Shown here in pieces: positions 1-11,098 of a stretch of 11,098 nt of DNA; position 1 is the first letter of the stretch; each line of letters begins with the position of its first letter. The notes beneath the pieces were generated by a model. That model saw only the letters and a list, made by a program, of their open reading frames with translations. It ran no database searches and had not been told where the DNA came from. Location: UHGV virus genome UHGV-0277743; one strand, written 5' to 3'. Origin of the DNA: a virus. The position numbers were made by a program, and so were the translations under genes.

Positions 1-135
1 GTTAACGTCACGCACGTGGACGAATGTTTTTGTGGAGTCACTACACGAGCAGAGAAAGCCATCTACGACCAGAAATTCTCTGGCGCAGCCGCCGACCTTC
101 TCAACGCTAACACCATCGACCGTAATTTCTGACAT
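1..135 (-). CDS. hypothetical protein, 5' portion only (ORF runs off the window start)
   Basis: ATG at 133-135 on minus strand, frame open through position 1 ([16 protein letters not shown]...). Absent from the ORF track because it has no in-window stop. No strong SD and no recognisable motif. Confidence 0.3.
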
Positions 136-269
136 AGTTAAGGCATCCGCTCCTACCACCAGAAAATGATAAACTTTGCTTGTATCTGCTCTATTAATGC
201 CAGACTTTGCTGTCATATTGCTGGATTTTGGCGACATACCAGCCAGTGAAAATATCTTCTTCTGGGCGG

Positions 270-452
270 TTAGCATTTGTTAACCTCCGCGAACTCCTTC
301 ATGAAACGTGCCAGCGGTTGTACGCATGGCGATTGATACCCGTCGCGATAAAACGTCACTCGGTTGTGAGACACGCTTTCGACAGTAACGAGTGCTCCGT
401 GGGCATCTTTGTAGCGTTTTTGGGGTTGTGGTGTTCCTGTCGGCTTAAACAT
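270..452 (-). CDS. small hypothetical protein (60 aa)
   Basis: Internal ATG of track ORF 270..539, preceded by GGAGG with a 6-nt spacer. The longer N-terminal extension would overlap the upstream antirepressor gene by about 95 nt, so I use the ATG at 452. Product MFKPTGTPQPQKRYKDAHG...; no motif recognised. Confidence 0.45.
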   Translation of the reverse strand: MFKPTGTPQPQKRYKDAHGALVTVESVSHNRVTFYRDGYQSPCVQPLARFMKEFAEVNKC

Positions 453-1278
453 GGACCGCCTCCAGACGCTTGGCGAGCCAGCGTTGCGACAGGCGGGTGA
501 GTTCTCCTTTGCGCTGCTCATATTCCATGCCCATATCAATTAACGTGATATTGGTGCTTTCGAGATATGAGAGGTGCTCAAGCTGTTCTGCGTTCATATG
601 GTCGCGAGGTTCGCCAGAATAGCCATTTATCCGCGCCCACTGCTTAGCAGTTAGCCCACCAAGAACGATACGAGAAATCATATTGCTCTCGTTTGTGTAG
701 TGGTGTTGCTGCGTCGTTTTCCCCTGCTCGGCACGGGCCATATTCAGCGCATCGCACATTGGCTTAAAGTTGTTTGCGGCACTAATACGGGCTTTTAGCT
801 GGCGACGATAGCGGGCGGCGATTTCAGGCACGCTACGCTGTAATTCTTCCTCGCACTGGATGAAATAACGACGGATAGCGCGACCCTGATCATTGCGTTC
901 GATCATTGCCAGTTCTTTCGCCATTCCGACACTTAACAGATAGTCTTTGCCGGGTCTGCCAGAGTGCTTAATCTTGCTGTAAGCCGCGCCATTCGGGCTT
1001 TTCCCCAAATTTGGGGAAATTGTTTTATGGACTGAGTAATCGTGCCCAATGGTGAAGTCATATTCAGAGATGCGATCAGTGATCCATGTAGAGAAGTCTT
1101 TTCCCACGCCCAACGCTTTGTGTAACGCTTTTGCGCTAACAATATTGGTTTCACGCCCACCGATATGACCAGGAATAACCGGGACAATTGCGGCAAATTC
1201 ATTACCGTTAATTGTGCCCAGAGAGGCGTTCAGATGAGGGGCGGCCTCAGAAATTAATCTGCTTTTTTCGATGTTCAT
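445..1278 (-). CDS. phage antirepressor-family protein (AntA/KilA-C-like N-terminal half)
   Basis: 277-aa ORF. The N-terminal half carries the pattern I associate with phage antirepressor domains (..NIVSAKALHKALGVGKDFSTWITDRISEYDF..GHDY.. and ..DYLLSVGMAKELAMIERNDQGRAIRRYFIQCEEEL). Same strand and downstream of alpA. Family assignment is from memory of the motif, not from a search. Confidence 0.65.
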   Translation of the reverse strand: MNIEKSRLISEAAPHLNASLGTINGNEFAAIVPVIPGHIGGRETNIVSAKALHKALGVGKDFSTWITDRISEYDFTIGHDYSVHKTISPNLGKSPNGAAYSKIKHSGRPGKDYLLSVGMAKELAMIERNDQGRAIRRYFIQCEEELQRSVPEIAARYRRQLKARISAANNFKPMCDALNMARAEQGKTTQQHHYTNESNMISRIVLGGLTAKQWARINGYSGEPRDHMNAEQLEHLSYLESTNITLIDMGMEYEQRKGELTRLSQRWLAKRLEAVHV

Positions 1279-1290
1279 TTTCAGTCTCCG

Positions 1291-1722
1291 TTAGGCGGCG
1301 TTAAACGCGTCCGGGTAGAGTTTCAGAATGTCGGCAATTTCCTGCTGAGAAAGTCCGTTGTGATCATTTATGTTCGCAAGATGGTTAATATGAGTGATCA
1401 CTTTCAGAACATCACCACGGCAGGAGAAACGGTAGCGAAGGTGTGTTCCGATACCATCAGGATTCTTTTCGTCGATACGCTCCAGAGTGATTCCAAGCTG
1501 GCGTTCTAACTCTGTTGCATAGTTACGACCAGAAGACAGATGGCAGTAGCGAAGAATGTCATTTTCTGTCCATCCCTCTATACCAGTACGCAGCATATAG
1601 ACTCTGGCACGATGCTTTTTCGGTGTGCGCTTTGGTGCTTGAAGGGATTTTGTAAGGGGCGTAACATCAGATACGCGAATATCTGAATTAGCCGCCTGTA
1701 ATGGGCGGTTTTTCTTTTCCAT
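1291..1722 (-). CDS. hypothetical protein (143 aa), basic N-terminus
   Basis: Start ATG 1720-1722 overlaps the alpA stop (TGATG arrangement), suggesting translational coupling. Lys/Arg-rich N-terminal stretch (PKRTPKKHRAR). No domain recognised. Confidence 0.6.
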   Translation of the reverse strand: MEKKNRPLQAANSDIRVSDVTPLTKSLQAPKRTPKKHRARVYMLRTGIEGWTENDILRYCHLSSGRNYATELERQLGITLERIDEKNPDGIGTHLRYRFSCRGDVLKVITHINHLANINDHNGLSQQEIADILKLYPDAFNAA

Positions 1723-1925
1723 CAGGCCACCTTCCCGCGGCGTTCTGCCAGCCAGTTGTGAATCTCAACCGCATCAAACGCAGTTATTTTTTCTCCCAGC
1801 TTTACCGGACGTGGTAGTGAACCGTTTCTTACTTTACGGTCGATGGTGGATACACTAACGCCCAGCAATTCAGCTAGGCGGAAGCGTCTGATATAGCCTT
1901 TTGTAGGAATAGTGTCGGTGTTCAT
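1722..1925 (-). CDS. alpA: AlpA-family prophage regulatory protein / excisionase-like HTH
   Basis: 67-aa product with the AlpA/Vis-type signature: FRLAELLGVSVSTIDRKVRNGSLPRPVKLGEKITAFDAVEIHNWLAERRG (HTH followed by a conserved W). Size and position next to an integrase are typical. Confidence 0.8.
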   Translation of the reverse strand: MNTDTIPTKGYIRRFRLAELLGVSVSTIDRKVRNGSLPRPVKLGEKITAFDAVEIHNWLAERRGKVA

Positions 1926-1994
1926 GCTTCCCGTAACCTCTTAGCGATAGTTGTTGCTTCGTTACGGGAGGAAGTATCTGTACATATATGAACA

Positions 1995-2023
1995 ATAAAA
2001 AGGCACAGTAATGATACTGTGCC
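1995..2023 (-). terminator. intrinsic terminator downstream of the AT-rich orphan gene
   Basis: Minus-strand RNA reads GGCACAGUA-ucau-UACUGUGCC followed by UUUUUAUU: a 9-bp stem, 4-nt loop and U-tract, 17 nt after the stop at 2040. Confidence 0.65.
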
Positions 2024-2039
2024 TGAATAGTTAGCTACT

Positions 2040-3005
2040 CTACCCCTTACCGTTGGCGGCAGCACGTAAGTGTCTCAAAATCACATCTTCATTTGTGATT
2101 GCTAACGGTGGAATTTCGTCTTTATGAGCCACTATGCAATCCCGCCACTTCTCAGGGCTTATTTCTTTCTTTTTGCCACGGCATTCATCAGGATACTTTG
2201 ACAAAAGATATATTGCTGATTTGAAAAGTTTTTCCCTGTTTTCAGCATGTCTCTCGGCATTATGGTTGCTATTTTTTATTTCAGGTATTAGTTCCTGTTC
2301 TACCGCCATTTCGTATCGTTTTTTGCTCTTAGCTGCGTCAAAACTTCCATTAACCTTTGCGTCGTGAAGGTATTCTAAATCAGCCTTTGTTATATAAATG
2401 TTTTTATCTGACAGGCTACTCAGGTGAATCTGGGAACTTTGCATTTTGAATTTATATAGATCACAATCAAATGTTGCTTCAAGTCGCACATATGGCTCTC
2501 CACATTCTTGTGAATGATAATGTCGTGTTGTACTACCGCGTACACGCAACAATCCACATGCAATTGATTTTCTTACAATAAAAGAGTTTTTGCCAATTTG
2601 TTCAAAAACATTTTTATTGTCTCTGTCTTCAACTGTCAGTGGTTTATGTGCATAAAATAGCTCATAAGCACCGCTTTCAGATGCTGGGATATAAACTTCG
2701 TTGCTTGCGCTGGTAATAAGAAAAGGAAATGTAAACCTTACTTCTTCTGGGTACATAAGTAATAAATCAGTTATAAAATCAGCATCTTTTTTGAAGTGGA
2801 TGGTGGCATCAGCTTCAATGAAATCAAGAAAGTCAGCATAGACATAAAAGTCTATATGTAGTCTATCTTTCCAATGCCATATATCATCAATTTCACAATT
2901 TAATAATTTTGATGCTCGCTCTATCGTGCAGTAGTCCAAAGGTGGGATACCTGATTCCTGCCATAAATTTCTATGCACCGCAGTTGTTTCATGAGAGTCG
3001 TTCAT
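2040..3005 (-). CDS. hypothetical protein (321 aa), AT-rich orphan gene in the integrase-alpA slot
   Basis: Complete ORF with AAGGTG 5 nt before the ATG at 3005 and its own terminator downstream. Hand counts on sample stretches give 32-37% GC, against about 57% in a sample of the integrase gene. No P-loop or other catalytic motif recognised. Confidence 0.7.
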   Translation of the reverse strand: MNDSHETTAVHRNLWQESGIPPLDYCTIERASKLLNCEIDDIWHWKDRLHIDFYVYADFLDFIEADATIHFKKDADFITDLLLMYPEEVRFTFPFLITSASNEVYIPASESGAYELFYAHKPLTVEDRDNKNVFEQIGKNSFIVRKSIACGLLRVRGSTTRHYHSQECGEPYVRLEATFDCDLYKFKMQSSQIHLSSLSDKNIYITKADLEYLHDAKVNGSFDAAKSKKRYEMAVEQELIPEIKNSNHNAERHAENREKLFKSAIYLLSKYPDECRGKKKEISPEKWRDCIVAHKDEIPPLAITNEDVILRHLRAAANGKG

Positions 3006-3100
3006 TGCGTCACCTTTTACGCTGCGCCTTATTTTGTGATTGAGCCAGGCGGTAAGGCTTCCCGCTTTTCGCCCCGTCGAGCTAGGCTCAATCTATTCAG

Positions 3101-4360
3101 TTAGTTCGCCCTTCTGAGAGGCGTTACGTTGTAGTCTTTTCCGCTTTCCAGTGCCACCAGCAGATCAGCCCACAGTGCCAGTGCTGCTTTACGCTCATCA
3201 AAATACTGATGGCGGTTATAAATCCCCTCTACGCCCTTAATGCGATGATTGAGGCATCGTTCCGCCACGACAGGATCAACACCCAACGCTGCTAAATGAG
3301 TACGTGCGGTGCGTCGGAAGTCGTGAATCGTGAAATTAGGCACATCCGGCATTTCGGCGCGAACCTTAGCCAGTGCTACGGGTAAAGTGCTTTCCTGAAT
3401 ATGTGGGATCATTCTGTTTTGCATTTTCCTGGCTGGAAGCACCCATGCGCTATTACATGAAAAGGTGTGTAGCTCTCTCAACCATTCAACGGCTGGGGAA
3501 GGTAGAGGTATATCAATAGGGTCTCCGTTTTTGCTGCGTTCTTCCGGCAAATGCCATACCGCACCATCTAAATCAAACTCTTCCCATCGTGCGGCGCATA
3601 ACTCCATCTTACGAACGCATAGTGCCAGCAATAGCTTAAATGTCAGTTCGTTCTGGCGGCTGAATCCTTTTGCGGTGCGCATAGCCTCGAATAGCCTGAT
3701 AAGCTCATCGCGAGTTAGCCAACGGTCGCGGGAAACCTCTTTACCACCAGCATCAGATACTTCAAACGCTGAACAAGGGTTTATCTCCAGAGCGTGGCGT
3801 TTTATCCCGTAGTCAAAGATACGGCGTGTCCAGCGTAATACATCTGTTGCTATCGTTGGTGCTCCTCGGTCAACGATACCTTTCAACATGTCGTCAATGT
3901 GGCGTGGCTTAACGTCCTCTACCTTCATATGCCCAATGCAGGGGTTAATATCCTTATCAATTCTCCGGCGAAGGATATCGGGATGTTTCCATCTCGGAAG
4001 TATCTGGCGCTCGAAGTATTCGGAGGCCAGATCTGAAACACGCATGGCGTTTTTCTCAGCCTCCATTTTTGCCAGTGCTTCAGCTTTTCGTTCCTGTTTC
4101 TCTGCTGCTACGTCATAGCCAAGAGCAACTCTGGCTGACAGCTCTTTGGCTGTCTCTCTGGCCTTTGATAGTGATAGCTCGCTATACGAACCAATTAGCA
4201 TGGCGCGGGACTTCCCTGCGAGTTTATAGCGGAATCTCCATGTGGGGGTTTTGTCGGCTTCACGGTAACGTAGGTATAAACCGTTACCGTCTGCCCGCCC
4301 CTCGAATCGCTCTCCGCTCTTAATCCATGCGCGGATCTGCATGTCTGTTAGTTTTGGCAT
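3101..4360 (-). CDS. int: tyrosine integrase, P4 family
   Basis: N-terminus MPKLTDMQIRAWIKSGERFEGRADGNGLYLRY matches the arm-binding domain pattern of P4-type integrases. C-terminus carries HDFRRT and CLNHRIKGVEGIYNRHQY (the H-x-x-R and catalytic Tyr region). Start trimmed from the track value 4501 to the ATG at 4358-4360, because the conserved N-terminus begins there and the extension would run through a terminator hairpin. Confidence 0.9.
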   Translation of the reverse strand: MPKLTDMQIRAWIKSGERFEGRADGNGLYLRYREADKTPTWRFRYKLAGKSRAMLIGSYSELSLSKARETAKELSARVALGYDVAAEKQERKAEALAKMEAEKNAMRVSDLASEYFERQILPRWKHPDILRRRIDKDINPCIGHMKVEDVKPRHIDDMLKGIVDRGAPTIATDVLRWTRRIFDYGIKRHALEINPCSAFEVSDAGGKEVSRDRWLTRDELIRLFEAMRTAKGFSRQNELTFKLLLALCVRKMELCAARWEEFDLDGAVWHLPEERSKNGDPIDIPLPSPAVEWLRELHTFSCNSAWVLPARKMQNRMIPHIQESTLPVALAKVRAEMPDVPNFTIHDFRRTARTHLAALGVDPVVAERCLNHRIKGVEGIYNRHQYFDERKAALALWADLLVALESGKDYNVTPLRRAN

Positions 4361-4390
4361 TTTGCGAATATCCAAACTTTGAATAGGGGG

Positions 4391-4442
4391 TGTACCCAAA
4401 GCAATGTACCCAAACCTCATTGGGTACACCTTTGTGTACACC
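4391..4442. promoter_or_regulatory. GTAC-core operator-like repeats in the int promoter region
   Basis: Two TGTACCCAAA copies (4391-4400, 4405-4414) followed by TGGGTACACC-TTT-GTGTACACC (4421-4442). The near-palindrome GGTGTACACC gives dyad symmetry. Sits 30-80 bp upstream of the int start codon. Confidence 0.45.
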
Positions 4443-4482
4443 ATAATCATGCGCTTTGTTGCGTCGTTATGATAGCTCATGA

Positions 4483-4513
4483 TAACAAAAAAGCCCGACA
4501 TTTCGCGGGCTTT
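4483..4513 (-). terminator. intrinsic terminator between the two-gene cassette and int
   Basis: Minus-strand RNA reads AAAGCCCG-cgaaaugu-CGGGCUUU followed by UUUGUUAUC. The same hairpin on the plus strand is followed by TATGGTTTTTT, so it may act in both directions, less well on the plus strand. Confidence 0.55.
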
Positions 4514-4632
4514 ATGGTTTTTTGCTGCTTGGTGATTTTTGCTGATAGCTTATTCGATATTCTGAATCTGTTTATTGAGTATGAGCCTCTATGCTGCGTG
4601 GTTACTGGATTCCTTGTAATGCTTCTTATAAT

Positions 4633-4655
4633 TAGGTACACCCATGTGTACACGG
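4633..4655. promoter_or_regulatory. second copy of the palindromic GGTACACC-n3-GTGTACAC module
   Basis: TAGGTACACC-CAT-GTGTACACGG aligns with 4421-4442 (TGGGTACACC-TTT-GTGTACACC). The GTAC cores are 12 bp apart in both copies. The two copies flank the terminator hairpin. Confidence 0.45.
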
Positions 4656-4791
4656 TATTTTGAGGTGCTGTCTTTGGCTGCTCATTTTATGCTCTCGTGC
4701 TTGCTGTTCTGGGCTACGTGCCAAACCGCAGCGAATACCTCCGTCTGCCAGATGAGCAAAACATACCTTATAAAGAAAATCGCTGTTTTTG

Positions 4792-4894
4792 CTGTACCAC
4801 CTGTACCACCATGTCACAAACCCTTGTGTGACGCGGCCTGCAGGTGGTACAGGTGGGTAAAAATGACCTCTCCCCACCTGTACAGACCTGTACC
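4792..4894. repeat. iteron cluster B with nested inverted repeats (candidate ori or attP core region)
   Basis: The 9-mer GGTACAGGT or its complement occurs at 4799-4807 (-), 4847-4855 (+) and 4886-4894 (-), with related copies at 4792-4798 and 4876-4884. A perfect 14-bp inverted repeat CCACCTGTACCACC (4797-4810) / GGTGGTACAGGTGG (4843-4856) encloses an inner 6-bp inverted repeat GTCACA (4813-4818) / TGTGAC (4827-4832) with an 8-bp spacer. Confidence 0.5.
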
Positions 4895-4900
4895 ATTTAT

Positions 4901-5638
4901 TTAATTTTTACCCATAGCAGCACATAATCCCTTTTTTGAAATATTGAAAAATGCGTTCATTCTTCCCGCTGGCTTAACCTTGTAGCCGCTTGCCACCATC
5001 GCCGCAATAAATGCTCCGTTGGGGATATAGTGCGGGTGATCACTGTGCTGGTGGTTTATCTGGTTATATCGCTCCACTTCATGCTTCAACGTGTCAGATG
5101 TGGGGTTATCCTGCGGGAAGCTCTCAATCTGGGCATTACTCATCCCGTTGTCTCTGATCCATCTCAGGCAGCTTTTCGCCGATACGATAAATGACGGGTT
5201 ATCAAGCGGGTTTTCCCAGTCCGCATTCCGGTTGTGGAGCGCCAGTCCGTCAAGGTTAAATTGTGGGTATTCAGCGGTAATTACTGTCACTGCGTGGCGG
5301 ATTTCAGTCTCGTCACAACATGGCTCATCTCCCACACCAGCAGGGTAATAATCTGAACCACCGGGACTGATACAGCGTTTACCACTGAAAGGCCATTGCT
5401 TCGCCATTTCGGGTGTTGAGTGATTACCGTCGCTCCGTTCGCGCTGTGCCTCTGTCCACTGGCTGGCATATTCAGTAAATGAAACCCTTTGCCCCTGACG
5501 CATCCAGTGCGCAATCATAATTAAAGTGCGTTCCAGACTTTGGATGTCGCCAGCATTCCCGCACTGTGTAGCGAAACTTTTTAATTCTTCGCGCTCCGTT
5601 CTGGTCATTCCCTGCGGTATGCAATAGTTATTGCTCAT
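4901..5638 (-). CDS. hypothetical protein (245 aa), second gene of a two-gene cassette
   Basis: ATG at 5636-5638 preceded by AGAGAGGT with a 5-nt spacer. Overlaps the upstream 76-aa gene by 11 nt. His-rich C-terminal patch (INHQHSDHPHYIPNG). No family recognised. Confidence 0.65.
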   Translation of the reverse strand: MSNNYCIPQGMTRTEREELKSFATQCGNAGDIQSLERTLIMIAHWMRQGQRVSFTEYASQWTEAQRERSDGNHSTPEMAKQWPFSGKRCISPGGSDYYPAGVGDEPCCDETEIRHAVTVITAEYPQFNLDGLALHNRNADWENPLDNPSFIVSAKSCLRWIRDNGMSNAQIESFPQDNPTSDTLKHEVERYNQINHQHSDHPHYIPNGAFIAAMVASGYKVKPAGRMNAFFNISKKGLCAAMGKN

Positions 5639-5858
5639 GTTTTACCTCTCTGATTTCTGCTGCCATATCTGTTGGCTCTATACAGCCGTCCCGACTTGCC
5701 ACGCAGGGAATAATGATTTCAACGGTATCGCCGTCAATACACATTTCAACATTCGCCCATGCCGCAATGGGTAGCCAGTCTGAACGCCCCTCAAACCGTA
5801 GCTGCCAGCCAGAGGAAGAAGCTAACTGGCGCACTTTGTAAAATGGTGTGCTCATCAT
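5628..5858 (-). CDS. hypothetical protein (76 aa), first gene of the two-gene cassette
   Basis: Tandem ATG ATG at 5858-5853 with GAGAGGG 8 nt upstream. Stop overlaps the start of the 245-aa gene. No HTH or other motif recognised. Confidence 0.55.
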   Translation of the reverse strand: MMSTPFYKVRQLASSSGWQLRFEGRSDWLPIAAWANVEMCIDGDTVEIIIPCVASRDGCIEPTDMAAEIREVKHEQ

Positions 5859-5902
5859 TGGTTGTTCCCTCTCAGCCAGCCAGAAGAAATGCGTTTGTTA
5901 AT

Positions 5903-6005
5903 GGTATAGGTGGTACAGGTCTGGTATAGGTAAGACATTGACCTGTACCACTATAACACATTGTTTTTAATGCTGAATTAGCAAAGTGGTATAGGTGGTA
6001 CAGGT
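5903..6005. repeat. iteron cluster A immediately downstream of the primase-helicase gene (crr/ori-like)
   Basis: Identical 18-mer GGTATAGGTGGTACAGGT at 5903-5920 and 5988-6005; partial copy GGTATAGGT at 5923-5931; inverted copy ACCTGTACCACTATA at 5941-5955. The basic unit is the 9-mer GGTAYAGGT. Flanked by AT-rich sequence (6006-6034). Confidence 0.6.
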
Positions 6006-6034
6006 AAAAACGATCTTCTTGTAAAAAGACTATA

Positions 6035-8386
6035 TTAAAAAACATCATAACCCCCCATACCGATCAGACGGGCAAACGCAGCCTGTAGAACTCCGACCTC
6101 TGGTAGTTCGTAGAACACGCCATTCCCTCGGTCTGGTCTTCCATGCTTCACCAGCCCCATTTGTGCAAGTGATTTACCCAGTAGTGATCTGGCAGCTGGT
6201 TCTTTAAGCTTTTCCCCACGCTCAAGCGACCACGCTACAAACCGACTAACCATATCCTTTGCAAACAAACGGACTTCGCCATTAAACGGAGGTTCATTGA
6301 TTAGCTCGCCATAAAGAAACAATTCAACGCCAGACAGCCCCAGCAAGATTTCTTCACGTAAGGCATCGGTCTGTGGCGCTCGTTGAGGGTCAAAACCTGA
6401 GAGATCCACCCCTTTAAGATGCCAAAGCAACTTTGCGGCACCGCCATCATTAAGCCAACTGTACAGCCGATCAAAATACTCCCGGCTCTGTGCTTTTTCA
6501 GGAGATGGCTCAAGCACGAGATAGCGACGCTCTCTTATCCCTGCCTGTAATACCTGTGTGCTGTTACTGGCAAATATCAACCGGGCAAAATTCGGCATTG
6601 GTTCAGCATCAATTCCCTTGCGCTCAAGGTTAAACGTCGGTTCGCTAATAATCGCTTTAAGTCTGTCAGCTTCAGACGGCTTGTGGATCGTCACTTCGTC
6701 AGCAAATACCAGTAGCTTGTTAGCAAGTATTGAATTGAAGCGCCCTGAAATATGTCCCGCCCCGTTAATGTGGGCGGCGTACTGCCCCAGTATTTGCAGC
6801 AGCGGTTTAACCGTTGTGCCTTTCCCTGTGCCCGGGACAGATTTCATCACGATTGCCACGGACGGTTTTTCATCAGGCTTTTGGATAATGTGCGCCATCC
6901 ACTGGATAAGATATTGGTATGCCTCTTCATTACCGGCACAGACAACCTGCAACAGGTGATTAAGGTATACCGTGCAATCTCCTTCAATTGGTTCCAGTGC
7001 CAGCCCCTCATACAGATTAAAAACATCGTCAGGGCATTTGTCTGGTACTGGATAAAATCCTACGCCTCCTGGCTTGTAGTTCTTCCCACTCCATGACAGC
7101 CACGCCGATCCCGCCAGCTTTCTGGCGACTCTCGGTTTATGATGAAAATAATGCTGAAATTGTGATAAATCCTCGAAAACGTGCGATACACCGCCGGTTT
7201 GAGAAGGCTTTAGCGACACCACCTTGTGTTTCCCGCCGATGGTGACATGCGTAAACGTCCGGTTGATTTCTTCGAGGACAGCAATTTCATCATCGCTTAA
7301 CACCTCGCCAGAACTGATCTCATTCAGCGCCCCGACTGACTGTTTGTGATTTTTCACCTGCGCCCCTTTCCCCCGTGGCTGGTACATCGAATCTTTAAAT
7401 GCTGCTGTGGCTGCCGCCAGCCCGTGTTGTTGGTGATAGTCGTTCCAGTCGGCTTTATAGTCAGTCGGTGGCAGAGACACCCAGCCAGCTACGGAAATAG
7501 CGGCCCTCTCTGCGGCATCTTTCCCCGTGTTGATCCCTCCACTTTCGGAGTTTCCTTGCTGGTGATCGTTATCTGCGGCAATGATGATTTGTGCCTGTGG
7601 ATATGTTCTGCGCATGACTTCCGCTACTGGCAACAGGTTGCCAGCGTCGATTGCTGCCACTGTCATTGCGTCAGGGCGAATTAAATGGCACGACAGGGCG
7701 GTAGCCACCCCCTCAGCAATTATGATGCTGTGAGGTCGTTTCTGTGCGTTTATGGCGTGATATGCCCCTCGCTTTGCTGAACCTGTCAGGAGTCTTTTTT
7801 CACCATGTGAGGTAATAGTCTGTGCTGCTGTGACTGCGCCGGATTTATCCACCAGCGCCAGCAACAGAGATCCATCGGGCAACACAGGGAATGTAAAATC
7901 ACCTACCCCTTTCGCAACCAGATAATCAGATTTGCCGTTTACAGCCTTTCTGCGCATGTCATCAAACTGACGGGAAAACGTATCCCGTCTTTGTTGTTCG
8001 TCCTTCTCTGCCCTTTTCAGGCGCTCCTGTTCGCGTCGCTGGCGCTCGGTTTCCAGTTGTTCCCGTTTCTGGCTGGTGGCTTCTGGTGTTTCCGTTGTCC
8101 GGTAATCAATACCCAGAACATCAGCGGCAAGCAGCGCCGCCTCTGTTGTGTCGCAGTTATTTACGCGTTTAATTAAATCCAGCCCATCACCAGCGCCGCA
8201 CTGATTACAGATGAAGCTACCGCGCCCGTTGTCATCGAACCGGAATCGATCTTTGCCCCCACATGCAGGGCAGGGAGCATGACGGCGCGGAGAGTCAGGG
8301 ACATTTATGTTCAGGCAGCCCAGCACATGAGGCCAGTTGTTTTCAGACGCACTGATAACCTGACGGATAAGATCAATGTTTCGCAT
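6035..8386 (-). CDS. bifunctional DNA primase-helicase, P4 alpha-like
   Basis: 783 aa from the ATG at 8384-8386 (the track starts one codon earlier at a GTG). N-terminal zinc ribbon CPACGGKD..CNQCGAGDG; Toprim motifs IIIAEGVATALS and IIIAADND; Walker A VPGTGKGT and Walker B LLVFADEV. GGGG SD 7 nt upstream. Resemblance to P4 alpha in length and domain order is from memory. Confidence 0.9.
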   Translation of the reverse strand: MRNIDLIRQVISASENNWPHVLGCLNINVPDSPRRHAPCPACGGKDRFRFDDNGRGSFICNQCGAGDGLDLIKRVNNCDTTEAALLAADVLGIDYRTTETPEATSQKREQLETERQRREQERLKRAEKDEQQRRDTFSRQFDDMRRKAVNGKSDYLVAKGVGDFTFPVLPDGSLLLALVDKSGAVTAAQTITSHGEKRLLTGSAKRGAYHAINAQKRPHSIIIAEGVATALSCHLIRPDAMTVAAIDAGNLLPVAEVMRRTYPQAQIIIAADNDHQQGNSESGGINTGKDAAERAAISVAGWVSLPPTDYKADWNDYHQQHGLAAATAAFKDSMYQPRGKGAQVKNHKQSVGALNEISSGEVLSDDEIAVLEEINRTFTHVTIGGKHKVVSLKPSQTGGVSHVFEDLSQFQHYFHHKPRVARKLAGSAWLSWSGKNYKPGGVGFYPVPDKCPDDVFNLYEGLALEPIEGDCTVYLNHLLQVVCAGNEEAYQYLIQWMAHIIQKPDEKPSVAIVMKSVPGTGKGTTVKPLLQILGQYAAHINGAGHISGRFNSILANKLLVFADEVTIHKPSEADRLKAIISEPTFNLERKGIDAEPMPNFARLIFASNSTQVLQAGIRERRYLVLEPSPEKAQSREYFDRLYSWLNDGGAAKLLWHLKGVDLSGFDPQRAPQTDALREEILLGLSGVELFLYGELINEPPFNGEVRLFAKDMVSRFVAWSLERGEKLKEPAARSLLGKSLAQMGLVKHGRPDRGNGVFYELPEVGVLQAAFARLIGMGGYDVF

Positions 8387-8744
8387 CACCGTACCCCACG
8401 TGGTCTATAGCGTTTGCGATATGGCTAACCAGCATCTGCCACTTGGTTATTCCGTAATCAGTCAGCATGCCATCATTGTTTAGCCACATATCAAATTCAG
8501 CGGTTGTCGCAAGTTTCCACTTATCGCCGTGGACAGTCCTCATTGCTGGGTACATGAATGCGCAAATCAGATCACAAACATCTGACGGCTTCAGAGATGT
8601 AGTAATGGTGCGTCCCTCTGGCGTCTGAATTGCCATTTTCTCTTCACCAGTAGAATGAAGGTTATGAATCCACACAGCACCAGCAATCTTTGCCACCTGC
8701 TCTCCGATTGCGGAGCTAAGCGCCATTTCTGCATTTTCACGCAT
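8373..8744 (-). CDS. hypothetical protein (123 aa), early operon
   Basis: ATG at 8742-8744 overlaps the upstream stop; its own stop overlaps the alpha start by 14 nt. No motif recognised. Confidence 0.6.
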   Translation of the reverse strand: MRENAEMALSSAIGEQVAKIAGAVWIHNLHSTGEEKMAIQTPEGRTITTSLKPSDVCDLICAFMYPAMRTVHGDKWKLATTAEFDMWLNNDGMLTDYGITKWQMLVSHIANAIDHVGYGDAKH

Positions 8745-9078
8745 GAGAACCTCCCGCTACAGTTGCGCCCATGTCATTAACCATGCTTTGCCATATCTCA
8801 CGCCCGACGTCAGTCAATCCGTCCTTAGTGACGCAACGCTCAAGAAGCTCGATCCCCACGGTTTCCCACTGCGGGTAGAACACTTTCATGGCTGCCAGTG
8901 TGTAGCTATCGATCAGGCTGCGAACGCCTTTTACTCCATTGACGATTTCCACACGTACGGCCTCGCCGTCCGCATCAACCATGAAATAGTCCCCGCCGCT
9001 GGTGGAGGTAATGTGGTTATACAGTGCCGACGCATACTTATTTGCCAGCGCATTCAGTCGGAAATTTTTAGTAATCAT
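8737..9078 (-). CDS. hypothetical protein (113 aa), early operon
   Basis: ATG at 9076-9078 preceded by AGGATGGAG, 10 nt after the upstream stop. No motif recognised. Confidence 0.6.
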   Translation of the reverse strand: MITKNFRLNALANKYASALYNHITSTSGGDYFMVDADGEAVRVEIVNGVKGVRSLIDSYTLAAMKVFYPQWETVGIELLERCVTKDGLTDVGREIWQSMVNDMGATVAGGSHA

Positions 9079-9088
9079 GGCTCCATCC

Positions 9089-9691
9089 TCAGTGCGTCAC
9101 TGGTTCCGCTGGCATGCCGTTTTCATTCAGTTCAGCTATAAAGCTGTTGTGAAGTTCAGCAAGCGTTTCACGCCCAAATGGAGTCAGTGCTCCTTGTTCC
9201 ACATCCATCATGGCTCTGTAGAAAATAATGGCGCGTTCTGTGCCAGACTCGATGCCAAAACGTTCTATCATCGCGCCCTCAATGTTGTTTGCCATAGCGA
9301 GGCGCTCTGCTACTGGATACAGCGGCATGGCGACGATGCCGTTGGAATAAACAGCCACTTCGGAAGGATTGCCAGTATCATCAATGATGCTGACAGTGCC
9401 GTTTTCCTCTCTCATTTCCAGCATGAATACTGTTGCGATCAGCCATCTCCACATAATGACGTTATGCTGTGATGTGTAATCGAAATATCCCTGGTTGCCG
9501 CCATCGGCAATAGCGAGATGTATTGACATACCTTCATCTGGTTTATCGTCATAATCCCCGGCATCCAGACGATTTACGGCATCAATATATGAGACGGCCT
9601 CAACGCGTTCTGTCATGCCATCGTTGCTGCGGTACATGATGTTTACGCCGTCAGGCGTTGCTTCTGCATGGAAAGTTAAGAAGTTATTCAT
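9089..9691 (-). CDS. hypothetical protein (about 200 aa), early operon
   Basis: Track ORF 9089..9796 trimmed to the in-frame ATG at 9689-9691 (MNNFLTFHAEATPDG...), 2 nt after the stop of the preceding 73-aa gene. The discarded N-terminal extension is Cys/Trp/His-rich and overlaps that gene. The start is uncertain; 9724 is an alternative. Confidence 0.5.
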   Translation of the reverse strand: MNNFLTFHAEATPDGVNIMYRSNDGMTERVEAVSYIDAVNRLDAGDYDDKPDEGMSIHLAIADGGNQGYFDYTSQHNVIMWRWLIATVFMLEMREENGTVSIIDDTGNPSEVAVYSNGIVAMPLYPVAERLAMANNIEGAMIERFGIESGTERAIIFYRAMMDVEQGALTPFGRETLAELHNSFIAELNENGMPAEPVTH

Positions 9692-9905
9692 GTTTCGCCT
9701 CGCCTGAATGATTCTGTAACTCATATTTGCCCAACAATTCGTCCGCTTCCTGAATAGCTTCTGGTACGCCATTGAGCAGTGACATAACCGCGCCAATCAT
9801 TAACTTGTCTCTGTTGCTGGGGCTGGCCCCTTCAAGCCAGAACCCTAAAACAGTCTGAACCTGTTCGATGCGACATTGCGCTTCAATGAGCTGGATGTTG
9901 GTCAT
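9684..9905 (-). CDS. hypothetical protein (73 aa), early operon
   Basis: ATG at 9903-9905 overlaps the upstream stop (ATGA), with GGAGAG upstream. Confidence 0.5.
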   Translation of the reverse strand: MTNIQLIEAQCRIEQVQTVLGFWLEGASPSNRDKLMIGAVMSLLNGVPEAIQEADELLGKYELQNHSGEAKHE

Positions 9906-10165
9906 TTCGCACTCTCCACATCGATTAAACCGATATCTATCAGGGAGGTAACTTTTTGTAGCCAGCTATTGATTACTGTCGCCTGTTCCCCGCCCACCGA
10001 GGGAACAATCTCATTCATCACATGAACCAGACCTGTGCGCGCTCTGGTAAGCCGTTCAGTCGCGCAATCTGCGGGAGTGAATGTGTCTGGATATGGCTCT
10101 TCACGCCCCAGCAATGATTCAATTTCCAGCTCACACGGATGACGATAAATTAAGTTGATATTCAT
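9902..10165 (-). CDS. hypothetical protein (87 aa), early operon
   Basis: ATG at 10163-10165 preceded by GGGGGTG with a 4-6 nt spacer; ATGA overlap with the upstream stop. Confidence 0.55.
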   Translation of the reverse strand: MNINLIYRHPCELEIESLLGREEPYPDTFTPADCATERLTRARTGLVHVMNEIVPSVGGEQATVINSWLQKVTSLIDIGLIDVESAK

Positions 10166-10356
10166 TTTTCACCCCCAAGAATTACCAGCTCGGCACGGGC
10201 ATCGTTAACCAAAGATGAGCACGCTTTAATCGCATCCACGACATCAGCAGCGTCCATTTCTTCAGCCGAAAGACTGACAGCAACCAGGACAGCCGCTGCT
10301 TGCTCGATTAATTGAAGTGCGGACGTAAGGCGAGGGGTATTAATTGAGTTATTCAT
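10162..10356 (-). CDS. hypothetical protein (64 aa), early operon
   Basis: Track ORF 10162..10413 trimmed to the ATG at 10354-10356 (MNNSINTPRL...), preceded by GGGGG. Acidic, Ala-rich product. Confidence 0.5.
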   Translation of the reverse strand: MNNSINTPRLTSALQLIEQAAAVLVAVSLSAEEMDAADVVDAIKACSSLVNDARAELVILGGEK

Positions 10357-10567
10357 TGGTTGCCCCCGTTTTGCATGGCATTTGTCCACCTTCCAGCAGG
10401 AAATGAACGTCACGAACGGCGAGATCCAATATCGCGAGTAACGCCTTCAGCCTTTCGTCTCGTGAGGGAGAGTTGCTCACCAGAATGTCGTTAATCACTT
10501 CTGTCAGTGTGATGATCTGGCTTGTGCGTTCGAGGGGATCCATATGCACATCGTAGGTTTTAATCAT
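10349..10567 (-). CDS. hypothetical protein (72 aa), early operon
   Basis: ATG at 10565-10567 preceded by GGAGGTGGCAC, a strong SD. This is the 3' part of track ORF 10349..11095, whose upstream portion I do not accept as coding. Confidence 0.55.
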   Translation of the reverse strand: MIKTYDVHMDPLERTSQIITLTEVINDILVSNSPSRDERLKALLAILDLAVRDVHFLLEGGQMPCKTGATNE

Positions 10568-10754
10568 GTGCCACCTCCATGCGGATACGACCAGCAAAAA
10601 AGCAGACGTGATCGCGCACCAGAGAACGGCGAGCATCGCGTTCAGACTCGGCAGCAATATGATGAATTTTGGCGGTAATTGTCGGGCAATCGCGGCGAAC
10701 TGCGGCGATAATCCAGATAAATTGCGGTTTTTGGGTAGGGGTAGTAGCCAGCAT
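10560..10754 (-). CDS. hypothetical protein (64 aa), first gene of the early operon
   Basis: ATG at 10752-10754 preceded by GAGG with a 7-nt spacer. Its stop overlaps the next start (ATGATTAA). Competes with the long alternative-frame ORF 10349..11095, so confidence is modest. Confidence 0.45.
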   Translation of the reverse strand: MLATTPTQKPQFIWIIAAVRRDCPTITAKIHHIAAESERDARRSLVRDHVCFFAGRIRMEVAHD

Positions 10755-10913
10755 GTGGCAGCCTCTGATTCATGGTTTTGAGAACCACCACCGGAAACGC
10801 CAATTTCGCTGGTGGTGAACTGTACAGGGTTGGCGTAACCGGGAATCAGAGAAACCGGCGCGGATTGCTCCGCCCCCATACAGTCCACCATTGAACAGGT
10901 GTAACTGCGCGGC

Positions 10914-10939
10914 ACAAAAAAACACGCATGGCGCGTGTT
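10914..10939 (-). terminator. intrinsic terminator in the leader upstream of the early operon (candidate attenuator)
   Basis: Minus-strand RNA reads AACACGC-gccau-GCGUGUU followed by UUUUUGU, and the stem can extend with GCACAA/UUGUGC. Lies about 160 nt upstream of the first early gene. Confidence 0.45.
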
Positions 10940-11000
10940 GTGCGCTCTGATAATTACCGGGACGCCAATCCCGACACCAGATTTTGCTGGTGCGCTATAA

Positions 11001-11043
11001 CCATAAACCGTGTTGCCGCATAACGGCAAGCTCTTTTTTATGG
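11001..11043. other. stem-loop element in the leader (CCATAAA...TTTATGG with an inner GC hairpin)
   Basis: Outer inverted repeat CCATAAA (11001-11007) / TTTATGG (11037-11043) encloses the hairpin TTGCCG-cataa-CGGCAA. On the plus strand the hairpin is followed by a T-run, so it could also be a plus-strand terminator. Function unknown; the window ends 55 nt further on. Confidence 0.3.
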
Positions 11044-11098
11044 ACTCCGAAAACTCACTATTGGAAGCACCAGATGCACAATACATCGCGCTCATTTC

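What the first reader, a model, noticed from the sequence alone, without database searches (positions are those of the whole stretch)
4361..6034. Primase-helicase operon runs into int with no host DNA between: tandem elements or a circular/episomal form
In integrated P4-type elements the integrase sits at one end next to att and transcribes away from it. Here the replication gene and its iterons lie only about 1.7 kb upstream of int on the same strand, separated by element-like sequence only (the two-gene cassette, repeats, terminator). I see no tRNA or tmRNA fragment. Either the window spans a junction between two tandem elements, or it derives from a circular replicon, or the element has a non-canonical organisation. 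AlpA and an antirepressor downstream of int is also not the classical P4 order.
Basis: inference. Interest (0 to 1): 0.45.

Follow-up and report, generated by a model that had tools for sequence, protein, structure and literature searches.

The report
Excised circular phage satellite, attP junction
The DNA between the replication gene and the integrase gene is the joined-ends site (attP) plus the replication origin of an 11-kb E. coli phage-satellite island read in its non-integrated, circular form, which is an ordinary, well-understood state for such elements.

Summary
On the minus strand, primase-helicase (8386-6035), two small ORFs and integrase (4360-3101) follow each other with no tRNA or tmRNA. 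The explanation is ordinary. The whole 11,098-base window is an exact circular permutation of an island that sits between yicC and dinD in many E. coli chromosomes. Window 1-4570 and 4701-11098 map to the two halves of the integrated island, and the window's end joins its start seamlessly in 13 related loci. The junction carries a textbook attP. Its 21-bp core (4550-4570, TTATTCGATATTCTGAATCTG) equals the last six codons plus stop of yicC, and K-12 attB and the hybrid attL/attR sites fit it. Doubled arm repeats flank the core with P4-like spacing, and an intrinsic terminator lies between core and int. Nine copies of the iteron TGGTAYAGG form two clusters around the two-gene cassette, resembling P4 ori/crr. 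Phage P4's own genome has the same order: alpha, crr, attP, int. Relatives occur integrated, as a chromosomal tandem (HB37), and as circular 'plasmid' records, one alongside a near-identical integrated copy. The backbone matches the verified PICI EcCIMP1. The tandem option is not strictly excluded. Low novelty.

The parts
6035..8386 (-). Primase-helicase gene (783 aa; Zn-ribbon + Toprim + DUF5906 helicase-like C-terminal half)
   Evidence: Pfam hits. The N-terminal 335 aa are 33% identical to P4 alpha, E=1e-40. The exact protein is indexed in 7465 blocks of the assembly collection, and the long contigs read all place it next to yicC.
5902..6004 (.). Iteron cluster A: six copies of TGGTAYAGG directly after the primase stop codon. 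This is the candidate origin of replication.
   Evidence: 9 copies in the window against 0.14 expected. Relatives with a DUF927-type primase carry a different 9-mer, GTTGGTTCA x6, at the same place, so the iteron co-varies with the primase allele. In Gram-negative PICIs the ori lies downstream of pri (PMC10111431).
5628..5858 (-). 76-aa ORF, first gene of the two-gene cassette; function unknown
   Evidence: Annotated as hypothetical in RefSeq relatives. It is present in all 9 loci with the DUF5906 primase and absent from the DUF927-type relatives. No family or PDB hit.
4901..5638 (-). 245-aa ORF, second gene of the cassette; function unknown
   Evidence: Same distribution as the 76-aa ORF. The only hit is a weak phrog_9576 match. 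No Pfam, NCBIfam, PADLOC or PDB hit. The single-sequence AlphaFold model is unusable, pLDDT 35.6.
4791..4895 (.). Iteron cluster B: three exact copies and two near copies of the same 9-mer, in mixed orientation. It is a crr-like second cluster, arranged as an inverted repeat of cluster A.
   Evidence: (I1, I3, I6). P4 likewise has two iteron clusters, ori and crr.
4701..4934 (.). 234-bp segment that occurs twice as a direct repeat in the larger islands of strains A3 and VE-T10, where it brackets about 7.4-7.7 kb of cargo (P22-type ejection protein genes, Abi, PerC). The window has one copy and no cargo.
   Evidence: window 4550/4563-4934 and 4701-8386 each match separate places in L002 and L009 at 99.7-100%.
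4571..4700 (.). attP P' arm, carrying the doubled arm-type repeat GGTACACCCATGTGTACAC at 4635-4653
   Evidence: It is contiguous with the dinD-side junction in A3 (99.7%). It is conserved in three other P-O-P' junctions. Direct repeat D6 pairs it with the P arm.
4550..4570 (.). att core TTATTCGATATTCTGAATCTG, equal to the last 6 codons plus stop codon of host gene yicC (read on the minus strand)
   Evidence: Alignment of window attP, K-12 attB, three yicC-side junctions and three dinD-side junctions; sequences.
4361..4549 (.). attP P arm. It holds the doubled arm repeat at 4423-4441, an inverted pair at 4390-4411 abutting the int start codon, and the presumed int promoter region.
   Evidence: (D6, D18, I15). 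The geometry is 84 bp upstream and 128 bp downstream of the core centre. The comparable values are 75/134 in P4 and 81/132 in HE-PICIs (PMC10111431). No sigma-70 consensus promoter was detected.
4490..4513 (.). Bidirectional intrinsic terminator hairpin (8-bp stem, 5 G-C pairs, flanked by an A-run and a T-run) between the core and int
   Evidence: searches (called on both strands; -15.1 kcal/mol), and invariant in 4 attP sequences. Inference: it ends primase-operon transcripts in the circular form and yicC transcripts in the integrated form.
3101..4360 (-). Tyrosine integrase of the P4 type (419 aa)
   Evidence: Pfam hits. 26% identity to P4 Int over the full length, E=2e-20. The identical protein lies next to yicC in GCA_018049345.1.
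3026..3092 (-). int-alpA RNA motif (Rfam RF02996)
   Evidence: 60.6 bits against a gathering score of 35.8.
1722..1925 (-). AlpA/Vis-type regulator-excisionase gene
   Evidence: Phage_AlpA, E=2.2e-8. The segment is 98.3% identical at DNA level to EcCIMP1. In EcCIMP1, alpA is required for excision and circularisation (PMC11773190).
10808..11006 (-). P4/P1-type immunity RNA module (C4 antisense RNA, isrK, c4-a1b1 targets) inside the ash gene
   Evidence: Rfam scores of 76.7, 81.1 and 45.1 bits.
22..128 (+). Fragment of a P22-type small-terminase gene that includes the position of the P22 pac site. This is the candidate packaging signal.

Best explanation
The window is one complete unit of a small integrative phage satellite, read in its non-integrated form: a circle, or one unit of a head-to-tail concatemer. 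The element has Gram-negative PICI organisation, an EcCIMP1-like backbone, and P4-type integrase, primase and immunity RNA. Region 4361-6034 is the end-to-end joint of the element. Reading along the minus strand, it contains the origin iterons just after the primase gene, a two-gene cassette that travels with this primase allele, a second iteron cluster, and then attP. attP consists of the P' arm, a 21-bp core identical to the 3' end of host gene yicC, and the P arm with a terminator and integrase arm sites. int follows. Integrase recombines the core with the end of yicC. Integration places int next to yicC at one end and the primase/origin end towards dinD at the other, while restoring the yicC stop codon and supplying a new terminator. 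Excision is presumably AlpA-dependent and helper-triggered, as shown for EcCIMP1. It rejoins the ends and produces exactly the order seen here. What is shown directly: the circular permutation, the att site set, the iteron statistics and their co-variation with the primase allele, the existence of circular records of relatives, and the P4 layout. What is inferred: that the iterons act as ori, the roles of the terminator, helper dependence, and the physical state of the molecule that was sequenced.
For: (1) Window 4701-11098 equals L001 15001-21401, and window 1-4570 equals L001 21402-25970, in E. coli MS14385. The window's end and start are therefore adjacent bases in the integrated island. 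The same seamless wrap is seen in 13 loci.
(2) 58 complete E. coli genomes hold at least 80% of the window. Every chromosomal relative whose annotation or gene calls were examined has the order yicC-int-...-primase-...-dinD.
(3) The att set fits. K-12 attB is GTTACGAG|TTATTCGATGTTCTGAATCTG|CTCGCGC. The window attP is CTGATAGC|TTATTCGATATTCTGAATCTG|TTTATTGAG. The yicC-side junctions read P+core+B', and the dinD-side junctions read B+core+P'.
(4) Three other P-O-P' junctions align with the window and conserve the core, terminator and arm repeats.
(5) In strain Z1323CEC0013 a related element is recorded twice: integrated at yicC|dinD (12,173 bp including both cores) and as a 12,152-bp circular record. 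The two lengths differ by exactly the 21-bp core.
(6) The P4 record shows alpha -> terminator -> crr iterons -> attP core with doubled arm repeats -> int on one strand.
(7) All 9 iterons fall in two clusters against 0.14 expected, and the iteron sequence changes with the primase allele.
(8) EcCIMP1 shares window 1-1732 at 98.3% and 7365-11098 at 92.5%. Its helper-dependent circularisation was demonstrated by attP PCR (PMC11773190). Covalently closed circular and concatemeric forms are documented for EcCICFT073 (PMC6092414).
Against: No read-level or physical evidence is available for this particular sequence, and its source was not found. An exact 50-mer across the junction is absent from the viral, genome and metagenome contig collections. 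No record in the E. coli, phage or plasmid collections holds this compact variant. An assembler would also output a circular unit from a collapsed chromosomal tandem array. The window's P' arm plus the 4671-4700 stretch is contiguous with the primase end only in this window. Integrated relatives have cargo there, so no integrated twin of exactly this variant was seen.
Confidence: 0.85

Rival explanations
1. The sequence comes from a head-to-tail tandem array of the same element in the chromosome at yicC. On this reading the junction is the internal att site between two copies. It arose by integration of a second circle into attL or attR, or by Int-mediated attL x attR recombination between sister chromosomes.
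For: A tandem array is recorded for a relative. HB37 carries two 18,174-bp units that are 99.95% identical, with intact cores at L006 20127 and 38301 between dinD and yicC. Tandem PICIs and SaPIs are described in the literature (PMC10111431, PMC12829572). The internal junction of a tandem is sequence-identical to attP, so the junction itself cannot discriminate.
Against: The window is exactly one unit long, with its end and start adjacent in integrated relatives and no yicC or dinD flank. For an arbitrary cut out of a chromosomal array that would be a roughly 1-in-10^4 coincidence. Only 1 of the 347 E. coli records that match the att region shows a chromosomal P-O-P' junction. PMC10111431 suspected that one two-unit PICI tandem was an assembly artefact caused by PICI activity.
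Confidence: 0.1
2. The circle is not a transient helper-induced excision product. It is a stably maintained autonomous plasmid, comparable to the P4 plasmid state, replicating from the iterons with its own primase-helicase.
For: Relatives are repeatedly deposited as small circular 'plasmid' or extra records from ordinary cultures. Examples are the 12,152-bp E. coli record and the 19,226-bp 'phage_14408_2', K. pneumoniae pKpvST101_3, and further Klebsiella and Raoultella records. The element has a P4-type primase N-terminal half, two iteron clusters like ori/crr, and a P4-type C4/isrK immunity RNA.
Against: No partition gene, and no homologue of P4 ORF106 (DUF5375), which lies just upstream of alpha, was found (that ORF106 is the P4 copy-control gene cnr is from my own knowledge). 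In Z1323CEC0013 the circle coexists with an integrated copy, as expected for spontaneous excision. The 5 differences between the two copies lie at GATC sites or in and beside the att core, so they do not show an independent lineage. Fillol-Salom et al. state that PICIs have no plasmid state (PMC6092414). EcCIMP1 circles were detected only when the helper was present (PMC11773190).
Confidence: 0.15
3. Two different, independent elements lie side by side, or the element has a truly non-canonical integrated gene order with int in the middle.
For: Only the first-glance appearance: primase operon upstream of int on the same strand.
Against: The sequences on both sides of the core are the two ends of one and the same island in E. 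coli genomes. No examined genome shows primase-att-int as part of a single integrated copy. The window wraps seamlessly.
Confidence: 0.02

Closest known systems
EcCIMP1, the phage-inducible chromosomal island of E. coli MP1 with helper phage Kapi1, a close relative of P22 (PMC11773190)
   Same: DNA identity is 98.3% over window 1-1732 (alpA, 143-aa gene, antA, DUF4222, start of ash) and 92.5% over 7365-11098. The gene order is the same: int, alpA, antirepressor, Ash, small genes, primase. The P22 pac-like segment is also shared at 96%. Helper-dependent circularisation through attP was shown experimentally for EcCIMP1.
   Different: EcCIMP1 integrates at tRNA-Thr with a different integrase. It has a DUF927-type primase C-terminal half, and its close DUF927-type relative L003 carries a different iteron. 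It lacks the 76/245-aa cassette. It carries a late zone (DUF2824, P22 gp7/gp20/gp16-like genes) and PerC, and it is 19,963 bp long. The window is 11,098 bp and has no late zone.
Gram-negative PICIs integrated in yicC, i.e. the reference PICIs of Fillol-Salom et al. 2018 as re-mapped by Mageeney/Williams (bioRxiv 10.1101/2022.07.18.500453; PMC10111431)
   Same: The window uses the same target gene, yicC. It shows the same unidirectional zones: Integration (int, alpA), Bro (AntA, Ash with C4/isrK RNA) and Replication (primase + ori downstream). Its size falls within 10-20 kb. Excision to a circle is followed by replication.
   Different: The window has no Late or packaging zone (no capsid, terS or rpp gene). 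I could not compare it with the named reference elements base by base, because their sequences were not retrieved here.
Satellite phage P4 (NC_001609)
   Same: The layout around the joint is identical: primase-helicase -> iterons -> attP core flanked by doubled 12-bp-spaced arm repeats -> int, all on one strand. The integrase is 26% identical and the primase N-terminal half 33% identical. Both have an AlpA/Vis homologue, a C4-type immunity RNA, two iteron clusters, and a size of about 11 kb.
   Different: None of the ORFs scanned against Pfam matched the sid, delta, psu or epsilon families, and the window has no megablast similarity to P4 or P2. The helicase and origin-binding half of the primase is unrelated (DUF5906). 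The iteron and arm-repeat sequences differ. The target is a protein gene (yicC) rather than tRNA-Leu. The presumed helper is P22-like rather than P2-like.

Membership tests
Non-integrated (attP-bearing, circular or unit-length) form of an integrative element | The sequence is a circular permutation of the integrated element, so its two ends are adjacent in integrated copies | tested here: met
   window 11098|1 is contiguous in 13 loci. The breakpoints of integrated copies fall at 4570 and at 4550/4701.
Non-integrated (attP-bearing, circular or unit-length) form of an integrative element | The junction has the form P-core-P', with a core shared with attB and with hybrid attL and attR sites | tested here: met
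   a 21-bp core. K-12 attB differs from it at 1 base. The yicC-side junctions are P+core+B' and the dinD-side junctions are B+core+P'.
Non-integrated (attP-bearing, circular or unit-length) form of an integrative element | Physical circularity of the sequenced molecule (closing reads, outward PCR, CCC band) | not testable with these tools
   No reads or source record are available. The source was not found.
Gram-negative PICI (Fillol-Salom 2018; Mageeney et al. 2023) | int followed by co-oriented alpA at one end, with unidirectional transcription | tested here: met
   and the integrated order.
Gram-negative PICI (Fillol-Salom 2018; Mageeney et al. 2023) | Primase/replicase gene with an origin downstream of it | tested here: met
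   Primase domains. The iteron cluster begins 31 bp after the stop codon. The iteron co-varies with the primase allele. Origin activity itself was not tested.
Gram-negative PICI (Fillol-Salom 2018; Mageeney et al. 2023) | Packaging or late module (capsid, terS, rpp or captured late genes) downstream of the replication zone | tested here: not met
   No such gene is in the window. Relatives carry P22 gp7/gp20/gp16-like genes there. Only a pac-like DNA segment is present.
Gram-negative PICI (Fillol-Salom 2018; Mageeney et al. 2023) | Induction, replication and transfer depend on a helper phage | not testable with these tools
   This was shown for the relative EcCIMP1 only (PMC11773190).
P4-like satellite | P4-type integrase, and an attP with doubled arm repeats flanking the core and lying immediately upstream of int | tested here: met
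   the repeats sit 84/128 bp from the core centre, against 75/134 in P4.
P4-like satellite | Alpha-type primase-helicase with cognate iterons in two clusters (ori, crr) | tested here: inconclusive
   The N-terminal primase half is homologous (33%, E=1e-40). The C-terminal half is not alignable. Two iteron clusters are present, but their sequence is unrelated to that of P4.
P4-like satellite | Capsid-size and helper-control genes sid, delta, psu and epsilon | tested here: not met
   None of the ORFs scanned against Pfam, or the subsets scanned against PHROGs and NCBIfam, matched these families. There is no DNA similarity to P4 in the phage collection.
P4-like satellite | CI/C4-type immunity RNA embedded in the early operon | tested here: met
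   Rfam C4 at 76.7 bits and isrK at 81.1 bits, both above their gathering scores (45 and 50), at 10808-10993; the c4-a1b1 target match at 10954-11006 (45.1 bits) falls just below its gathering score of 46.7.

The most novel reading that the evidence does not exclude
Elements of this yicC/EcCIMP1-like group may be able to persist as autonomous multicopy plasmids, a P4-style plasmid state. They would be driven by the primase-helicase and its two iteron clusters, held in check by the C4-type RNA, and then packaged from a captured P22 pac site when a P22-like phage infects. That would contradict the published statement that PICIs have no plasmid state, and it would blur the P4/PICI divide. The repeated deposition of such elements as circular 'plasmids' from uninduced cultures of E. 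coli, Klebsiella and Raoultella is compatible with this reading but does not prove it.
Probability: 0.15. Interest if true: 0.45.

Novelty: new member of a known kind. Interest (0 to 1): 0.18.

Why it matters
For the question asked it matters little. It removes an apparent anomaly by showing that the window is a satellite in its excised circular form, with a cleanly defined attP, core and target gene (yicC). Three practical points follow.

- It gives base-exact att sites and an ori candidate for a very widespread E. coli island. The exact primase protein is indexed in 7465 blocks of the public assembly collection.
- It shows that small 'plasmid' records in complete genomes can be excised satellites.
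- It points to a P22 pac-like segment as a testable packaging signal for EcCIMP1-type PICIs, whose packaging mechanism was reported as unidentified.

Tried and rejected
**Searches that found nothing**
- The source contig was sought with an exact 50-mer across P-core-P' in viral contigs, genome contigs and metagenome contigs. There were 0 hits in each.
- A look-up of the exact integrase protein found only an integrated, non-identical copy in GCA_018049345.1.
- The phage and plasmid collections hold no record with at least 80% of the window.

**The two-gene cassette**
- Pfam, PHROGs, NCBIfam, PADLOC and PDB sequence searches gave nothing usable.
- A single-sequence AlphaFold model had pLDDT 35.6 and was not taken to fold search.
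- I ran no further search on it, because it does not bear on the junction question.

**Other dead ends**
- The promoter scan found no sigma-70 consensus for int in 4361-4489.
- ORFs 4632-4877(-), 4477-4653(-), 4379-4663(+) and 4644-4904(+) overlap the att site, terminator and iterons. The 4632-4877 ORF, the only one scanned, has no Pfam hit. RefSeq relatives annotate no gene there. I treat them as chance ORFs.

**Ideas rejected**
- A tRNA-derived att site: ARAGORN and Rfam find none.
- The circular copy in Z1323CEC0013 as an independently evolving lineage. Of the 5 differences, 2 are C/T at GATC sites and 3 are in or beside the att core. In my own judgement, C/T disagreement at Dam (GATC) sites is typical of long-read consensus errors.
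Full report
**What is in the window**

Every ORF of any size is on the minus strand. Read in the direction of transcription, the order is as follows.
- An Ash-family gene that spans the window's ends (276->1, then 11098->10349) and contains Rfam C4, isrK and c4-a1b1 RNA elements.
- Five small genes.
- A primase-helicase at 8386-6035, with Zn-ribbon, Toprim and DUF5906 domains.
- A 76-aa ORF and a 245-aa ORF (5858-4901).
- About 540 bp without any credible gene.
- A tyrosine integrase at 4360-3101, followed by an int-alpA RNA motif (3092-3026) and a low-GC 321-aa ORF.
- AlpA (1925-1722), a 143-aa ORF, an AntA antirepressor (1278-445) and DUF4222.

ARAGORN finds no tRNA or tmRNA.

**The window is a circular permutation of a chromosomal island**

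Megablast against complete E. coli genomes finds at least 80% of the window in 58 genomes. In MS14385 the island lies between yicC and dinD in the order yicC-int-321aa-AlpA-143aa-AntA-DUF4222-Ash-...-primase-76aa-245aa.

A direct BLAST shows that window 4701-11098 equals L001 15001-21401 and window 1-4570 equals L001 21402-25970. The last base of the window is thus followed in the chromosome by its first base, and the integrated copy is opened at about 4570/4701. The same seamless wrap across 11098|1 is seen in 13 loci. The window shows no terminal redundancy.

A window cut at random from a chromosome would not be exactly one unit long. This is a complete unit of a circular, or circularly assembled, molecule.

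**The junction is attP**

The alignment gives a textbook set of sites.
- K-12 attB: ...GTTACGAG TTATTCGATGTTCTGAATCTG CTCGCGC...
- Window: ...CTGATAGC TTATTCGATATTCTGAATCTG TTTATTGAG...
- yicC-side junctions (MS14385, GCA_018049345, HB37): the window's left arm, the core, then yicC.
- dinD-side junctions (A3, MS14385, HB37): the dinD-proximal host arm, the core, then the window's right arm. The A3 junction is 99.7% identical to the window.

The 21-bp core at 4550-4570, read on the minus strand, is CAG ATT CAG AAT ATC GAA TAA. These are the last six codons and the stop codon of yicC, so integration preserves the gene.

On both sides of the core lie co-oriented doubled repeats, GTGTACAC-N4-GTGTACC with a 12-bp period. 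They sit at 4635-4653 and 4423-4441, which is 84 bp upstream and 128 bp downstream of the core centre in int orientation. An inverted pair at 4390-4411 abuts the int start codon. All of these are conserved in three other P-core-P' junctions.

P4's annotated attP has the same design, with doubled 12-bp repeats at 75 and 134 bp and an inverted copy over the int start. HE-PICI attPs have a doubled motif at 81 and 132 bp (PMC10111431).

An invariant hairpin terminator at 4490-4513 lies between core and int. I infer two roles for it. In the integrated state it replaces the native yicC terminator, which is visible in the K-12 host arm. In the circle it keeps primase-operon transcription out of int.

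**The repeats are origin-type iterons**

TGGTAYAGG occurs nine times in the window against 0.14 expected. All nine copies fall in two clusters. Cluster A (5902-6004, six copies) begins 31 bp after the primase stop codon. Cluster B (4800-4895, three exact copies plus near copies) follows the 245-aa ORF. The two clusters form an inverted repeat around the cassette.

Relatives whose primase has a DUF927 C-terminal half carry a different 9-mer at the same position: GTTGGTTCA, three direct and three inverted copies. The iteron therefore co-varies with the primase allele, as expected for a cognate origin. Gram-negative PICIs have their ori downstream of pri (PMC10111431), and P4 has two iteron clusters, ori and crr. 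Origin activity itself remains an inference.

The 76/245-aa cassette accompanies the DUF5906 primase in all nine such loci and is absent from the DUF927-type elements. Its function could not be determined.

**The order is canonical once the molecule is read as non-integrated**

In the P4 genome record the minus strand runs alpha (6969-4636), terminator, crr iterons (4590-4291), attP core (4097-4078) with arm repeats, then int (3926-2607). That is exactly the order in the window. The int-alpA-Bro-replication order after int is the standard zone order of Gram-negative PICIs (PMC10111431, PMC6092414).

- *Integrated single copies.* The long contigs read all carry the island at yicC.
- *Chromosomal tandem.* HB37 has two 18,174-bp units that are 99.95% identical, with intact cores.
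- *Extrachromosomal records.* These are the 12,152-bp circular 'plasmid' pZ1323CEC0013_1-4, the 19,226-bp 'phage_14408_2', K. pneumoniae pKpvST101_3 and others.

In Z1323CEC0013 the chromosome also holds the element at yicC|dinD. The integrated length (12,173 bp) exceeds the circle (12,152 bp) by exactly the 21-bp core. Among the 347 E. coli records that match the att region, only these three show an uninterrupted P-core-P' junction.

**What the element is**

EcCIMP1 is an experimentally verified PICI. Its helper is Kapi1, a close relative of P22, and its alpA- and int-dependent circularisation was shown by attP PCR (PMC11773190). It shares window 1-1732 at 98.3% and window 7365-11098 at 92.5%. 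It differs in its integrase and target (tRNA-Thr) and in its primase C-terminal half, and it carries a late zone and PerC.

PICIs at yicC are among the published reference PICIs (bioRxiv 10.1101/2022.07.18.500453). Relative to P4, the integrase is 26% identical and the primase N-terminal half 33% identical, and the immunity RNA is of the C4/CI type. The sid, delta, psu and epsilon genes are absent.

The window is thus a compact (11.1 kb) mosaic member of the Gram-negative PICI / P4-related satellites. Its compactness is explained by comparison with A3 and VE-T10. In those strains window 4701-4934 is present twice as a direct repeat around roughly 7.4-7.7 kb of cargo. Recombination between the repeats would give the window's structure. 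The direction of that change is an inference.

**What remains open**

The physical state of the sequenced molecule cannot be decided from sequence. It could be a free circle, a replicative concatemer, virion DNA, or a collapsed tandem. The source was not found.

A stable P4-like plasmid state is not excluded, but nothing here requires it. No partition or cnr-like gene was found. The differences between the circular and integrated copies in Z1323CEC0013 lie at GATC sites or at the att core.

**Verdict**

This is an ordinary, well-understood configuration, so interest is low. The most useful by-product is the P22 pac-like segment at window 22-128. It offers a testable packaging signal for EcCIMP1-type islands. 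[quoted passage not shown]

Noticed in passing
window 22-128 (+), inside the annotated 5' extension of the ash gene on the opposite strand: This is a fossil of a P22-type small-terminase gene (gene 3). Window 61-128 is 64/68 identical to P22 and IME10 gene 3. Window 22-43 aligns with the annotated 22-bp P22 pac site (BK000583.1 nt 4-25) at 15/22 matches. The plus-strand frame still reads ...[27 protein letters not shown], which gives a weak GP3_package hit. The segment is conserved in the relatives aligned (MS14385 island, pZ1323 plasmid; absent at the stretch taken from VE-T10) and is 96% identical in EcCIMP1, whose helper is a P22 relative. It is a likely pac-site mimic for headful packaging. 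I found no description of it in the held literature.
   Followed up: partly
window 10808-11006 (-): P4/P1-type antisense immunity module lying within the ash reading frame: Rfam C4 (76.7 bits) and isrK (81.1 bits) above their gathering scores, and c4-a1b1 targets (45.1 bits) just below its gathering score of 46.7. The element probably uses RNA-based immunity like P4 CI, although its gene order is PICI-like.
   Followed up: no
window 2040-3005 (-), with GC falling to 0.35-0.36 over 2200-3000: A low-GC 321-aa ORF sits between int and alpA, preceded by the int-alpA RNA motif (3026-3092). Relatives carry unrelated genes of 216, 293 or 326 aa in this slot. That pattern suggests a variable accessory or defence hotspot. 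The only hit is a weak PADLOC PDC-S31 match, E=0.002.
   Followed up: partly
window 4701-4934; L002 14152-14385 and 22067-22300; L009 20866-21099 and 13453-13686: In strains A3 and VE-T10 this 234-bp segment (iteron cluster B plus the last 34 nt of the 245-aa gene) is a direct repeat around roughly 7.4-7.7 kb of cargo (P22-type ejection protein genes, Abi, PerC). The window looks like the product of recombination between the two copies, or else like the ancestral compact form.
   Followed up: partly
L018 (Z1323CEC0013 chromosome) compared with L003 (its 12,152-bp circular record): The integrated and circular copies differ at 5 bases. Two are C/T at GATC sites, and one of these creates the 'internal stop' annotated in the chromosomal primase. 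Three lie in or next to the att core. The circle's core reads TTATTCGAT, whereas both chromosomal cores read TTATTCAAT. Either these are long-read consensus errors, or the circle is not a simple excision product of the resident copy.
   Followed up: partly
L006 (E. coli HB37 chromosome) 1960-38321: There is a perfect head-to-tail duplication of an 18.2-kb relative between dinD and yicC (99.95% identity; 2 mismatches and 7 gap openings). It could be a real tandem, or an assembly merge of the integrated and circular forms.
   Followed up: partly
dinD-side att cores in L001 7197-7217, L002 14001-14021 and L006 about 1960: The dinD-side core copies carry substitutions (TTATTCAATGTT..., TTATTCAATATT..., TTACTCAATAT--TG...), whereas the yicC-side cores mostly match attP. 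This may mark the position of strand exchange, or decay of the non-coding copy.
   Followed up: no
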